Positions 13,484 through 16,546 of a stretch of 64,000 bases of DNA are shown here, one piece after another. Position 1 is the stretch's first letter. Every line of letters begins with the position of its first letter. The position numbers and the translations under genes were made by a program. Where the stretch lies: contig CAWBWI010000006.1 of assembly GCA_963792585.1 (NCBI GenBank), positions 256,001 through 320,000 on the forward strand. The letters run 5' to 3'. The notes beneath the pieces were generated by a model. It ran no database searches. It was not told the DNA's origin and saw only the letters and a list, made by a program, of their open reading frames with translations. This DNA is from Candidatus Eiseniibacteriota bacterium. Its GTDB lineage: Bacteria; Eisenbacteria; RBG-16-71-46; CAIMUX01; VGJL01.

Positions 13484-13546
13484 GAACCCCTCCCCCTCTG
13501 TTGGAGACCCACCCCTCGCCGCAGAAGACCCGCTCGCTGGATACGG

Positions 13547-14326
13547 CTAGGAGTTCGGCGGGCTCCGCCGCACCAGCGTCGCGGAGGCCTGCGCCTCGGG
13601 AAGCAGCAGCACCTCGGCCACGTTGACGTGCGCCGGGCGGGTCGCAACGAAGAGGACTGCGTCGGCGACGTCGGCGCCCGTGAGCGGCATCATCCCGTTG
13701 TAGACCTTCTTCGCCCGCTCCTCGTCACCGTGGAAGCGGACGAGGCTGAACTCGGTTTCCACGAGACCGGGATCGACCGTGCTGACGCGAATCGGCGTAT
13801 CGACCGTGTCCATCCGGAGCCCTGCGGTCAACAACCGCACCGCCGCCTTGGAGGCGCAGTAGACGTTCCCCCCCGGATACGCCTCCCGGCCGGCGATCGA
13901 GCCGATGTTGATGATCTGCCCGCGCCCGCGCCGCACCATTCCCGGCAGGACCGCACGCGTGACGTAGAGCAAGCCCTTCACATTCGTGTCGATCATCTCC
14001 TCCCAGTCGTCCAGGAGGCCCTCGTGCAGCTTGTCGAGTCCGCGGCTGAGTCCGGCATTGTTCAGGAGGATGTCGATCTCCTCCCACTCGGGAGGCAGCG
14101 AGCTCACGGCGAGGTCGACGGAGGGTTGATCGCGCACATCGAGCGTCAGGAGATGGATGGGAACCCCCGTCTCACTGGCGATCTGCGCGGCGACGGTCTC
14201 GAGCCGGTCCAATCTGCGCGCGGCCAGCAGCAGCGACGCGCCCTGTGAGGCAAAAGCGCGCGCGCACGCCTCCCCGATCCCGCTGCTCGCGCCGGTGACG
14301 AAGACGATCTTACCGTCGAGTCTCAT
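13547..14326 (-). CDS. SDR oxidoreductase (YdfG-like)
   Basis: TGASSGIG, NNAG, YCASK, PGLVETEFSLVRF. Confidence 0.92.
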   Translation of the reverse strand: MRLDGKIVFVTGASSGIGEACARAFASQGASLLLAARRLDRLETVAAQIASETGVPIHLLTLDVRDQPSVDLAVSSLPPEWEEIDILLNNAGLSRGLDKLHEGLLDDWEEMIDTNVKGLLYVTRAVLPGMVRRGRGQIINIGSIAGREAYPGGNVYCASKAAVRLLTAGLRMDTVDTPIRVSTVDPGLVETEFSLVRFHGDEERAKKVYNGMMPLTGADVADAVLFVATRPAHVNVAEVLLLPEAQASATLVRRSPPNS

Positions 14327-14360
14327 CGAATATCCCTTCTGGTTCGGATCCGGCACCAGA

Positions 14361-14900
14361 CTAGCGGGCCGGCGTCACGGCGTCCAGGATGGCGGCTCGG
14401 ATCCAGGGCCAGTGCGCGTGGTCGCCGGCGAAGCGCGCCTCGCGGCGAGCCCGGATCTCCCCACGGGCGTCCACGGTGAAGGTCCCGCCGAGCTGGCGCG
14501 GATCGCTGTCGACGTGGGTTTGCCGGAAGCCGCGCCGCAGCGCGCGGAAGGCAGCAACGAAGACGGGCGGTCCGATCAACCCGTACGGGCCCGCCCGCCG
14601 GGTCCTAAGCGCGCGGTAGAGTTCGCGCTCGCCGTCCACGAGGAGCAGGTACGGCAGATCCATCGATTGGGTGAGCGCCCGCGCCGTCTCCACGCTTCCC
14701 ATGCCGACGGCGATCGCCTGGGCGCCGAGGGATCTGATCTCGTCATGATGGTCGCGCAACTGCGCGAGGGCCTCCCGGCAGAAGATTCAGCCGAAATGGC
14801 GCAGCAGGACGAGCACCGTGGCCGGATGCGACGCGATGAGCGAGTGCAGGCGCGGCACCGAGCCGTCGCCCGCAGGCAGGGAAAGATCCGGGACTCGCAT
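14361..14900 (-). CDS. Peroxiredoxin-like (AhpC/TSA_2, PRXL2/SelU-like) selenoprotein, UxxC
   Basis: GGAGG SD and ATG at 14900. VLVLLRHFG-TGA(14789-14787)-IFCREALAQL continues in frame to DGERELY...RQLGGTF...GDH. SECIS-like hairpin downstream of the TGA. Confidence 0.85.
14752..14789 (-). promoter_or_regulatory. Bacterial SECIS element
   Basis: UGA followed by stem UCGCGC-AGUU-GCGCGA. Apical loop begins 25 nt after the UGA with G at loop position 2. Confidence 0.7.
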
Positions 14901-14917
14901 GGGCCTCCTCCATGGAG

Positions 14918-15376
14918 CTAGATCCTGCGCCGCGAGAGGCGCACGGAGGCCAGCGCCAGGCACGCCGTGCCGAGCAGACCCATCGCGGCGAGCTGCATGA
15001 CCGGGATGGGGAACCCACCGATCGATACAAGCGCCTGCGGCAGTCCTCCCACCGCATCAAGAATGGGTGGGAGCGCGAAGATCGTGCCGATCCCAAGGGC
15101 CGACGCGGCGACGGGTGCCGCGATCGCGGTTCCGCGGATCCCCCACCTTTTGTCCGCGCGCCGACGCTCTCGGCCATCCGTCCAGGCGAGGTAGGCGACG
15201 CGGGCCGCGAAACCGGGCGGGGCCTGCCCGCGTTCGGACATCGCGCTACGCATAGCGACGGCTGCGCGCAGCGCGGCGCCGCAGCTTCGGCAGGTCGACG
15301 CATGCGGATCGCGGAGCGCATCCTCCCCGGCATGATCGAGTTGGGCGAGAAAGCGGGCGCAGGCCGGATCGGTCAT
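14918..15376 (-). CDS. Zinc-binding (ZAS) membrane anti-sigma factor
   Basis: C...HASTCRSC motif and two TM helices. Overlaps the ECF stop (ATGA). Confidence 0.75.
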   Translation of the reverse strand: MTDPACARFLAQLDHAGEDALRDPHASTCRSCGAALRAAVAMRSAMSERGQAPPGFAARVAYLAWTDGRERRRADKRWGIRGTAIAAPVAASALGIGTIFALPPILDAVGGLPQALVSIGGFPIPVMQLAAMGLLGTACLALASVRLSRRRI

Positions 15377-15954
15377 CGTTCCTCCTCCTGCATGACGGTA
15401 CGCACCTTCCTTCGCGCCCGAAAGAGCCGGATCCGGACCGCCCCCGCGCTCCCCCCGATCGCGCGAGCGACCTCAGCAGCGCTCATCCCTTCCTGATCGT
15501 GGAGGATCAGGGCGAGTCGGTCGGCCTCCCCGAGCCGGCCAAGCGCATCGGCGAGACGCACCGCGGTTCTCCGCTGTTCTCTCGCAATCTCGGGCGACGG
15601 GGCGGGATCGAGAATTCGCGCATCCTCCGGATTCCCGGTCTCCTCCGCCAACCCCACCCGCTCGGGCGCGCGCCGCAAGCGCCGGTGGCGATCGATCAGG
15701 AGATTGCGCATGATGCGGAAGAGCCAGGTCCCGAACAGGGCGTCGCCCCGAAATCGGCCGATCTGGGCGAACGCCCTCAGGAACGCCTCCTGCGCGAGAT
15801 CTTCGACGTCCTCCGCGGGCACGCAACGCCGCAGGACGGCAAAGACCCGATCCTGATGGAGCCGGACCAGCTCTTCCATCGCCTCCCGCCGCCCGTCGCG
15901 GGCCCCCGCGAGGAGCGCCCTCTCGATCCCGGCATCGGACTCGGTTCTCTCCAA
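15373..15954 (-). CDS. ECF sigma factor
   Basis: EDLAQEAFLRAF, FRGDALFGTWLFRI, EGMSAAEVA...VRIRLFRAR. TTG start with GAGGGG SD. Confidence 0.9.
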   Translation of the reverse strand: MERTESDAGIERALLAGARDGRREAMEELVRLHQDRVFAVLRRCVPAEDVEDLAQEAFLRAFAQIGRFRGDALFGTWLFRIMRNLLIDRHRRLRRAPERVGLAEETGNPEDARILDPAPSPEIAREQRRTAVRLADALGRLGEADRLALILHDQEGMSAAEVARAIGGSAGAVRIRLFRARRKVRTVMQEEER

Positions 15955-15975
15955 GTTCCCCCTCGTCTTCGCCTT

Positions 15976-16001
15976 GGACGCCGCCGGAGGCGCCGCGTTA
16001 C
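15976..16001 (-). promoter_or_regulatory. ECF promoter of the sigma operon
   Basis: GTAAC-N16-CGTCC. Confidence 0.7.
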
Positions 16002-16004
16002 ACC

Positions 16005-16030
16005 GTAACACTCCCGGGCCGGGGGCGTCC
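16005..16030 (+). promoter_or_regulatory. ECF promoter of the DUF6249 gene
   Basis: GTAAC-N16-CGTCC. Confidence 0.7.
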
Positions 16031-16075
16031 GAAAGGGTGGACCGGCGATTGGGCCGGCCGGAGAGGAGTCCGGAC

Positions 16076-16546
16076 ATGCTAGGATTCGATCTGTTCGATG
16101 CCATGGGTGCGAGCATTGGAGGCGCGATCCAAATGATGATCGGCTACGCCTGGGTGCTGATTCCGCTCGCGGGAATCGTCTGGTTCATCGTCAACGGCCT
16201 GGCCGAAGAGAAGACCGCGAGGCTCAACCGCGAGCTTCTCCATCGAGAGCGACTCGTGGCGATGGAGAAGGGGATGACCGAGGTCCTCGAGCGATCGGTG
16301 GCCACGGAATCGATCGCATCGGGCCGCGATTCGAACGGCCTCCTGACCGGAGGGATCATCACCCTCGGAGTCGGGATCGGCCTGAGCTTGTTCCTCCAGA
16401 TCGCCGTGGACGGCAACGATCGCAGGCAGGCCGTAGCCGTGGGCCTGATTCCAATCTTCGTAGGTCTGTCCCTGATCGCCGCCTGGCTCGTGACCCGCCG
16501 CCTGGGTCGCAACGGCACCTTCAAGGAGCCGAGAGGGAGTGCATAA
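16076..16546 (+). CDS. DUF6249-like membrane protein
   Basis: LHRERLVAMEKG and GGIITLGVGIGL...GLIPIFVGLSL. Divergent from an ECF sigma factor. Confidence 0.75.
   Translation: MLGFDLFDAMGASIGGAIQMMIGYAWVLIPLAGIVWFIVNGLAEEKTARLNRELLHRERLVAMEKGMTEVLERSVATESIASGRDSNGLLTGGIITLGVGIGLSLFLQIAVDGNDRRQAVAVGLIPIFVGLSLIAAWLVTRRLGRNGTFKEPRGSA

What the first reader, a model, noticed from the sequence alone, without database searches (positions are those of the whole stretch)
14361..14900. Hidden UxxC selenoprotein with SECIS, truncated by the ORF caller
Seen: SD and ATG at 14900, 37 codons ending LLRHFG, an in-frame TGA at 14789-14787, then IFCREALAQL and the rest of a thioredoxin-fold protein. A perfect UCGCGC-AGUU-GCGCGA hairpin has its loop 25 nt after the UGA. 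Established: AhpC/TSA_2 (PRXL2/SelU-like) proteins carry RHxxCxxC, and bacterial SECIS elements lie just 3' of the UGA with a G in the first two loop positions. Inference: Sec occupies the catalytic position, so this organism uses selenocysteine.
Basis: partly seen in the sequence, partly recalled or inferred. Interest (0 to 1): 0.8.

Follow-up and report, generated by a model that had tools for sequence, protein, structure and literature searches.

The report
Hidden peroxiredoxin-like selenoprotein, known kind
An apparent stop codon early in this gene is very likely read as the rare amino acid selenocysteine, which restores a full-length, likely antioxidant enzyme that gene finders cut short; the call looks right, but bacterial proteins of this kind have been in print since 2008.

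Summary
Observation confirmed base for base: SD, ATG 14900, 37 codons, in-frame TGA 14789-14787, 6-bp hairpin with AGUU loop 25 nt later, stop 14363-14361; the public call starts at the TTG inside the hairpin (132 aa). Selenocysteine is very likely (about 0.95): the column is Cys or TGA in all 160 homologue hits; the hairpin sits in the same register in 11 of 19 TGA forms against 3 of 139 Cys forms, with compensatory changes; the genome has selA, selB, selD, tRNA-Sec and about a dozen other candidate selenoproteins; TGA is otherwise its main stop. The 179-aa product is an AhpC/TSA_2 (PF13911) thioredoxin-fold protein, 2.9 bits under the cut-off of NCBIfam 'SelL-related redox protein'; its closest solved relative is human prostamide/PGF synthase (PRXL2B). 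Likely role: thioredoxin-recycled peroxide reductase (inferred). Not novel as a kind: bacterial RHLGUxxC proteins are in the 2008 GOS dataset. Useful extras: CxxC, UxxC and UxxU forms share one SECIS register; Sec/Cys switched several times. The scan noted other selenoproteins of this genome before, and this stretch in another window. No read-level or protein-level proof.

The parts
14904..14911 (-). Shine-Dalgarno GGAGGAGG
   Evidence: sequence; complementary CCTCCT in the 16S tail of this genome
14361..14900 (-). CDS of the 179-aa UxxC AhpC/TSA_2 (SelL/PRXL2-related) selenoprotein, P0001
14787..14789 (-). in-frame TGA, codon 38, predicted Sec (first position of RHFG-U-IF-C)
   Evidence: 141 Cys + 19 TGA of 160 homologue hits
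14778..14780 (-). Cys41, predicted resolving residue
   Evidence: invariant in alignment A2, 55 rows; matches Cys47 of human PGFS
14752..14767 (-). bacterial SECIS upper stem-loop UCGCGC-AGUU-GCGCGA, loop 25 nt after the UGA
   Evidence: fits the four constraints in PMC13188914 section 5
14757..14759 (-). TTG (Leu48), part of the SECIS loop and the false start of the 132-aa public gene call
   Evidence: TTG is 23 of 345 Leu codons in six long genes of the window
15373..16116 (-). context: ECF sigma factor (true start not fixed), its stop overlapping the next ATG
   Evidence: TIGR02937 over cut-off, Pfam Sigma70_r2/r4_2
14918..15376 (-). context: putative membrane anti-sigma factor with an HxxxCxxC motif (HASTCRSC), ending 17 nt before the selenoprotein ATG
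   Evidence: sequence; no Pfam or NCBIfam hit at 1e-3; the zinc-anti-sigma label is recalled, not from a call
13547..14326 (-). context: short-chain dehydrogenase 34 nt downstream
   Evidence: Pfam adh_short; best NCBIfam YdfG under cut-off; 80% identical gene near the homologue in G004

Best explanation
The frame 14900-14361 (minus strand) has one in-frame TGA at codon 38 that is very likely decoded as selenocysteine, giving a 179-aa UxxC thioredoxin-fold protein predicted to work as a PRXL2/prostamide-synthase-like, thiol-recycled peroxide reductase. Decoding (inferred from the standard bacterial pathway): SelB-GTP with Sec-tRNA(UCA) binds the AGUU hairpin 25 nt downstream and beats RF2 at this UGA; without selenium the ribosome would stop after 37 residues. 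Chemistry (inferred from human PGFS): the Sec38 selenolate at the start of helix 39-50, beside Arg34 and His35, attacks an O-O bond of a likely organic or lipid (endo)peroxide; Cys41 closes a selenenyl-sulfide, which a thioredoxin-type donor would reduce. Shown: sequence, machinery genes, Sec/Cys pairing, SECIS conservation, family, predicted fold. Inferred: incorporation, substrate, donor. Probability of the Sec reading alone about 0.95; the confidence given is for Sec plus peroxide-reductase role.
For: Column 38 is TGC 105, TGT 36, TGA 19 of 160 distinct hits in 219 loci. The ten best full-length NF040769 matches among 206 genomes of the phylum all hold a TGA. Fixed-register hairpin 11 of 19 TGA forms vs 3 of 139 Cys forms. 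In 13 TGA forms chosen for having a hairpin, 6 of 8 pairs change on both sides, covariation 0.436 vs shuffled 0.210 (0 of 500) and slid controls up to 0.099. The AGUU register recurs at five separate places of the tree. selA, selB with SelB winged helices, selD (itself with TGA and hairpin), tRNA-Sec 68.4 bits vs 47. 15 of 15 genomes with a TGA form hold selA or a strong tRNA-Sec, against 15 of 25 whose fetched locus has Cys. PF13911 49.6 vs 27. AF2 model pLDDT 95.3, thioredoxin fold; top Foldseek hit human PGFS 9usa, E 2.3e-10, then BCP/AhpE peroxiredoxins; profile hit to 9us9 E 2.4e-19. PGFS reduces the PGH2 endoperoxide with Cys44 next to Arg40/Arg41 (PMC12938796 passages; docking-based for the pose).
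Against: No protein-level or 75Se evidence. Hairpin alone is weak against shuffles and synonymous re-coding (p about 0.04). 8 of 19 TGA forms lack the fixed-register hairpin (3 of them have a good one shifted by one base or with a 5-nt loop). The Cys set is enriched by the search pattern RHFGCIFC and the TGA set holds near-copies, so the counts are not independent; the covariation alignment left out 6 of the 19 TGA forms. selA is nearly universal in this order, so co-occurrence in kin says little. The G004 copy keeps the TGA but has an in-frame deletion through the SECIS, so the gene can decay. Identity to PGFS is 21%, and PGFS Arg41, placed at the peroxide, is His35 here. No call shows a substrate; the neighbourhood is not conserved beyond the family.
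Confidence: 0.68

Rival explanations
1. Same selenoprotein, other job: a protein-disulfide reductase, redox relay or redox sensor rather than a peroxide reductase, possibly resetting the HxxxCxxC anti-sigma factor encoded just upstream.
For: UxxC at the start of a helix is the thioredoxin-type layout, and ResA/DsbE appear among profile hits; it lacks the PxxxT/SxxC peroxiredoxin motif; three Cys homologues are fused to a MerR DNA-binding domain (P0065, P0096, P0109); it follows an ECF sigma/anti-sigma pair by 17 nt.
Against: Closest solved relative by sequence and fold is PGFS, then BCP/AhpE peroxiredoxins; no ECF or anti-sigma match in 153 homologue loci, 90 of them 4 kb or longer.
Confidence: 0.27
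2. The TGA is a nonsense mutation or an assembly error in a Cys gene (pseudogene or artefact).
For: TGA is one base from TGC/TGT; the G004 copy is damaged; the codon was not checked row by row in reads (table cut).
Against: TGA at the same column in 18 other distinct hits down to 29% identity; G031 at 51% protein identity keeps TGA and an identical hairpin; five close clusters (72-91%) are truncated at the same place; SECIS tracks the TGA.
Confidence: 0.02
3. UGA is read as Trp (code 4/25) or as Cys by a special tRNA, not as Sec.
For: Cys would give an ordinary CxxC enzyme; UGA-to-Cys systems exist in some bacteria (recalled, no call).
Against: TGA ends 1013 of 1876 long coding-like frames and prfB is present; TGG is the Trp codon in use; homologues never have Trp here; the only UCA tRNA found scores as tRNA-Sec; selA and selD are present.
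Confidence: 0.02
4. The 132-aa product from the TTG at 14759 is the real protein, as annotated.
For: Called so in the collection for this genome and five close clusters.
Against: It lacks the first strands and the whole active-site motif; the upstream 47 codons align with full-length Cys homologues and have a strong SD; the TTG is explained as part of the SECIS loop.
Confidence: 0.01

Closest known systems
NCBIfam NF040769 'SelL-related redox protein' / Pfam PF13911 AhpC-TSA_2
   Same: Only NCBIfam hit, E 6.5e-34, covering profile 7-172 of 173; all 55 rows of alignment A2 match it; PF13911 over its cut-off.
   Different: 117.1 bits against a cut-off of 120, so not formally filed there; the public call is a 132-aa fragment without the active site.
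Bacterial 'Prx-like' UxxC selenoproteins of the GOS survey (PMC2398784, 2008, Dataset S1)
   Same: Four RHLGUxxC and two RHFGUxxC sequences in the dataset; by eye JCVI_READ_1093012208814 and 1095515484943 are of the same sub-branch as locus L139, which is 38% identical to P0001; the first lies under the heading 'Prx-like 1'.
   Different: Marine reads lumped with other Prx-like proteins; the dataset has no SelL or SelU heading; this gene is from another lineage. The match to the GOS reads was judged by eye, not computed.
Human prostamide/prostaglandin F synthase (PRXL2B = SELENOU3; PDB 9us9, 9usa) and the SELENOU family
   Same: Best sequence and fold match; RxFG-CxxC, DxxQxGG and GD motifs align; SELENOU1 is a selenoprotein in fish and birds (PMC13134290 passages).
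   Different: 21% identity; Sec instead of Cys44; His instead of Arg41; no bacterial substrate known from any call.
SelL (SELENOL), UxxU diselenide protein of fish, invertebrates and marine bacteria
   Same: Peroxiredoxin-like fold with the redox motif at the same place (PMC2397514 and PMC13134290 passages); a UxxU homologue was found in G006.
   Different: This protein is UxxC and would form a Se-S, not a Se-Se bond.
Bacterial SelA/SelB/SelC/SelD system with in-frame SECIS (bSECIS consensus, PMC13188914 section 5)
   Same: All four genes present; loop 4 nt, stem 6 bp, G at loop position 2, spacing 25 nt, -9.4 kcal/mol.
   Different: Nothing unusual found.

Membership tests
Bacterial selenoprotein (Sec-UGA + bSECIS) | in-frame UGA aligned to conserved Cys of homologues | tested here: met
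   141 Cys + 19 TGA of 160
Bacterial selenoprotein (Sec-UGA + bSECIS) | bSECIS: loop 3-9 nt, stem 4-16 bp, G in first two loop positions, spacing 16-37 nt, energy at most -7.5 | tested here: met
   4 nt, 6 bp, AGUU, 25 nt, -9.4 (constraints). bSECISearch itself was not run.
Bacterial selenoprotein (Sec-UGA + bSECIS) | selA, selB (with winged helices), selC, selD in the genome | tested here: met
Bacterial selenoprotein (Sec-UGA + bSECIS) | selenium incorporated in the protein | not testable with these tools
   needs 75Se or MS
Pfam PF13911 AhpC-TSA_2 | score over the gathering cut-off | tested here: met
   49.6 vs 27 bits
NCBIfam NF040769 SelL-related redox protein | score over the curated cut-off | tested here: not met
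   117.1 vs 120 bits with U read as C; 108.1 with the stop left in. Closest family, not filed as a member.
NCBIfam NF040769 SelL-related redox protein | full-length match and sole best model | tested here: met
   profile 7-172 of 173; only hit
SelL proper | UxxU motif (two Sec, diselenide) | tested here: not met
   codon 41 is TGC
Classical peroxiredoxins (AhpC, BCP/PrxQ) | PxxxT/SxxC(U) active-site motif | tested here: not met
   motif is LRHFGUIFC; Prx motif as given in PMC13188914
PRXL2B / PGF synthase | thioredoxin fold with CxxC and Arg40/Arg41 beside it | tested here: inconclusive
   fold met; Arg34 matches Arg40, His35 stands for Arg41
PRXL2B / PGF synthase | endoperoxide reductase activity | not testable with these tools
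   no assay

The most novel reading that the evidence does not exclude
This is the selenium-armed effector of a zinc-anti-sigma/ECF redox switch: a bacterial counterpart of prostaglandin F synthase that reduces lipid or other organic (endo)peroxides. Its family forms a natural CxxC / UxxC / UxxU series in which one AGUU hairpin, 25 nt from the first codon of the motif and 16 nt from the second, serves either or both positions and was gained or lost many times, a ready system for testing how a SECIS arises inside a coding sequence and what Se-S or Se-Se adds to catalysis.
Probability: 0.2. Interest if true: 0.5.

Novelty: new member of a known kind. Interest (0 to 1): 0.24.

Why it matters
It corrects a systematic annotation error: this gene and five close clusters are stored as 132-137-aa fragments without their active site. 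It confirms an ordinary Sec system in an uncultured lineage where selA is nearly universal and where this one genome has about a dozen candidate selenoproteins. The family has no entry under NF040769, PF13911 or SelL in the 2026 catalogue of 119 prokaryotic selenoprotein families, where it is probably inside 'Prx-like, UxxC/UxxU', so a separate entry with its Cys, UxxC and UxxU forms would be a small, real addition. A specialist would not be surprised.

Tried and rejected
Whole-region folding as proof of the SECIS: not significant. Reads: no run holds half of the words of 13500-16200; the best holders are relatives at about 92-95%; contigs of X3, X13 (RNA library) and X5 cover the codon, the 40 rows shown list no change at 14787-14789, 228 rows were not shown, and contigs cannot show expression, so read-level confirmation stays open. 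Conserved operon: ECF and anti-sigma found in 0 of 153 homologue loci, an SDR in 4 (one syntenic at 80% in G004, one a fusion, two weak), the S9 peptidase in 1. Sigma-70 promoter or terminator between the genes: none near the gene. Alternative code: rejected. A 92-nt 'tRNA-Cys' at C1:127609-127700 looks like a false aragorn call and has no tRNA-Sec score. The first genome-wide TGA scan missed the query itself; the second recovered it; both lists hold many false candidates, so the selenoproteome count is rough. The Fisher value 0.0075 used L063 as a Cys form; one search showed it is a TGA form, so the corrected counts are 15 of 15 and 15 of 25 and that p is not used. Tree is the quick one; the careful search did not finish. 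Paper searches with no relevant hit: 'SelL-related + selenoprotein' (21), 'SelL + selenoprotein + bacteria + AhpC' (16), 'NF040769 / SelL-like / SelU-like' (92), 'Eisenbacteria + selenocysteine' (55; the taxon was my guess from recalled protein tails, not established by any search). The original SelL and SelU papers (PMC1955791, PMC1298953) are not held. No complex was folded; no binding is claimed.

Full report
1. Observation. The minus strand has GGAGGAGG at 14911-14904, ATG at 14900, 37 codons ending LLRHFG, TGA at 14789-14787, IFC with Cys41, and TAG at 14363-14361; read through, 179 aa. Nineteen bases after the TGA begins TCGCGC-AGTT-GCGCGA (14767-14752), so the loop starts 25 nt after the codon; the hairpin folds at -9.4 kcal/mol. 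The mechanical ORF list and the public protein collection both start the gene at the TTG at 14759 and give 132 aa. That TTG supplies the UU of the loop and the first base of the 3' arm and is a rare Leu codon here (23 of 345). Five close clusters (72-91% identical) are stored as the same 132-137-aa fragment. Taken alone the hairpin is not far above chance: z 0.24 over 90 nt, -0.76 over 45 nt, and 402 of 10000 synonymous re-codings do as well.

2. Is the TGA selenocysteine? Loci were fetched from relatives, from 206 genomes of the phylum with NF040769, and from the genome and metagenome collections (80 kept of 216 and of 160). Of 160 distinct hits that cover residue 38 in 219 loci, 105 have TGC, 36 TGT and 19 TGA, the query included. 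The Cys share is inflated because one search pattern was RHFGCIFC; the phylum search had no such bias, and its ten best full-length matches all contain a TGA. After dropping two distant rows (L025, L214), a stem of 5 or more pairs around a 4-nt G-containing loop exactly 25 nt after the codon occurs in 11 of 19 TGA forms and 3 of 139 Cys forms, and six Cys forms with the same Ala-Gln-Leu at that place do not make it. In 13 of the 19 TGA forms, picked because they had a hairpin, 6 of 8 pairs change on both sides (covariation 0.436; shuffles 0.210, 0 of 500; slid controls at most 0.099). A quick tree of 87 rows (18 Sec, 69 Cys thinned from 138; L027 and one short row left out) needs 9 Sec/Cys changes, at least 4 forced by strong branches, and the AGUU register appears at five separate places; the tree is unrooted, so gain and loss are not told apart. 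The rows are not independent and no p value is relied on.

3. Machinery. G000 (84% complete) has selA (486.9 bits, cut-off 267.9), selB (320.9, cut-off 242.25; SelB barrel and winged helices), selD (386.7, with its own in-frame TGA in CAG-U-AAK and an 8-bp hairpin) and tRNA-Sec(UCA) (68.4 bits, cut-off 47). TGA is the commonest stop (1013 of 1876 long coding-like frames) and prfB is present, which excludes a general recoding. Two rough scans found about a dozen further TGA sites with hairpins; of 11 read through and scanned, two pass NCBIfam (seleno)protein cut-offs and three more hit selenoprotein models under cut-off (one reference there was in the wrong frame and was redone). selA is in 33 of 35 genomes of the order. 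All 15 genomes with a TGA form have selA or a strong tRNA-Sec, against 15 of 25 whose fetched locus has Cys; five metagenome TGA loci could not be tested this way.

4. Reads. No served run holds half of the words of the region. Contigs of X3 (whole stretch, 151 differences in 2701), X13 (an RNA library, 14731-14920) and X5 (14736-14933) cover the codon; none of the 40 difference rows shown falls on 14787-14789, but 228 rows were not shown. This is consistent with a conserved TGA and is not a proof; expression is not shown.

5. What the protein is and how it likely works. Pfam AhpC-TSA_2 49.6 bits (cut-off 27) and AhpC-TSA 46.4 (26); the only NCBIfam hit is NF040769 SelL-related redox protein, 117.1 against 120, matched by all 55 rows of alignment A2. 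R34, H35, G37, U/C38 and C41 are invariant in A2 (biased by the pattern). The AlphaFold model (U as C) has mean pLDDT 95.3 with the motif at the start of helix 39-50. The best solved match by sequence (E 2.4e-19) and by fold (E 2.3e-10, 21% identity) is human prostamide/PGF synthase (PRXL2B), followed by BCP and AhpE peroxiredoxins. In PGFS the CxxC thiols reduce the PGH2 endoperoxide, with Cys44 docked at the peroxide and Arg40/Arg41 beside it (PMC12938796, passages). By analogy Sec38 would attack an organic peroxide, Cys41 would resolve to a Se-S bond and a thioredoxin-type donor would recycle it; each step is inferred. The N-terminus shows no signal peptide by eye, so the protein is likely cytoplasmic. 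The main rival is a disulfide reductase or redox sensor.

6. Surroundings. Upstream on the same strand lie an ECF sigma factor and an overlapping 152-aa membrane protein with HASTCRSC, a likely zinc anti-sigma (label recalled; no family hit), ending 17 nt before the ATG; an SDR starts 34 nt after the stop, then an S9-type hydrolase. One transcript is plausible. The whole block is intact in the X3 relative; SDR and S9 follow the homologue in G004; ECF and anti-sigma are found in 0 of 153 homologue loci. The link to the sigma factor is therefore local.

7. What is known. The 2008 GOS selenoproteome (PMC2398784; passages and searches of supplement 3) holds four RHLGUxxC and two RHFGUxxC sequences; two of them match locus L139 closely by eye, and L139 is 38% identical to P0001. 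Prx-like UXXC selenoproteins were already listed in 2005 (PMC1088965, passages). SelL occurs in fish, invertebrates and marine bacteria (PMC2397514, passages) and SELENOU1 is the Sec branch of PRXL2 (PMC13134290, passages). The 2026 catalogue (PMC13188914; sections 5 and 7 parts 1-2 with the whole of Table 1) has 'Prx-like, PF00578, UxxC/UxxU' and an AhpC/TSA cd02970 UxxS entry, but none under NF040769, PF13911 or SelL. Searches found no paper on the bacterial family by name; subscription journals and the original SelL and SelU papers were not available, and they may describe it. It works like a standard bacterial selenoprotein with a PRXL2-type active site; it is a member of PF13911, just short of NF040769, and is neither SelL proper nor a classical peroxiredoxin.

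8. Verdict. It is a new member of a known kind, hidden by annotation. The most useful extra is the family's CxxC / UxxC / UxxU series on one SECIS register (G006 has UGA at both positions, 25 and 16 nt before the same loop). Earlier notes of the scan on this genome pointed me to NF045500 for the Omp28-like genes and agree that the genome uses Sec; they were not used as support. Interest 0.24.

Noticed in passing
L192:1489-2070 (-) = G006:C5 about 110627-111208: UxxU homologue (RHLM-U-LP-U) with the same AGUU hairpin, 25 nt after the first UGA and 16 nt after the second: one SECIS in range of both codons. That bacterial SelL uses one SECIS for two Sec is recalled, the paper is not held.
   Followed up: partly
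L093:1232-2752 (+), a Myxococcales MAG: Sec form fused to a C-terminal short-chain dehydrogenase, 507 aa; its sister on the tree, L117, has Cys and a broken hairpin.
   Followed up: partly
L071, L073, L075, L118, L135, L138, L142 (L071, L073, L075 named as Chloroflexota; the rest metagenome contigs): A Cys paralogue and a Sec paralogue lie in tandem.
   Followed up: no
P0065, P0096, P0109: MerR DNA-binding domain fused to a CxxC member of this family, 288-294 aa: possible redox-sensing regulator.
   Followed up: no
L232:6846-7250 (+) = G004:C22:68846-: Same-family copy keeps the TGA but has an in-frame deletion of about residues 46-98, SECIS included: decayed gene or assembly fault; SDR and S9 peptidase follow as in the window.
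   Followed up: partly
G000 C3:375132(-), C1:242644(-), C1:1373758(-), C1:1449638(+), C3:1081711(-), C6:192043(+): TGA sites with hairpins in known selenoprotein types: SelT/W/H and TUGYCR-redoxin over cut-off, UshA-like PCGU under cut-off, AhpD/CMD CxxU, TlpA-like UxxC lipoprotein, SelD.
   Followed up: partly
G000 C6:900851, 968110, 970444, 742343 (all -): Four secreted Omp28-like UxxC candidates, three with a GTG-loop hairpin 20 nt after the UGA; two of three scanned hit NF045500 weakly, far under cut-off. The trio was noted before (e1-8719129).
   Followed up: partly
G000 C3:452022 (+), L226:172-1805: Secreted PQQ-like beta-propeller with a C-terminal sorting tail and an in-frame TGA in GCAT-U-GHG, with a 9-bp hairpin whose loop starts 25 nt on. 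No such family in the 2026 table read; could be a new selenoprotein or a frameshift/nonsense; homologues not checked.
   Followed up: no
G000 C2:244034 (-), L228: 620-aa exported protein with a WPYT-U-NLS site and hairpin before a second, CxxC thioredoxin domain; unexplained candidate.
   Followed up: no
G000 C1:1777540 (-), L229: Small secreted protein with SGVS-U-ES and a GGUC-loop hairpin, no NCBIfam hit; may be one of the sugar-binding-fold candidates in e1-8718888 / e1-8718385.
   Followed up: no
window 15974-16546 (+): DUF6249 membrane protein divergent from the ECF sigma factor.
   Followed up: no
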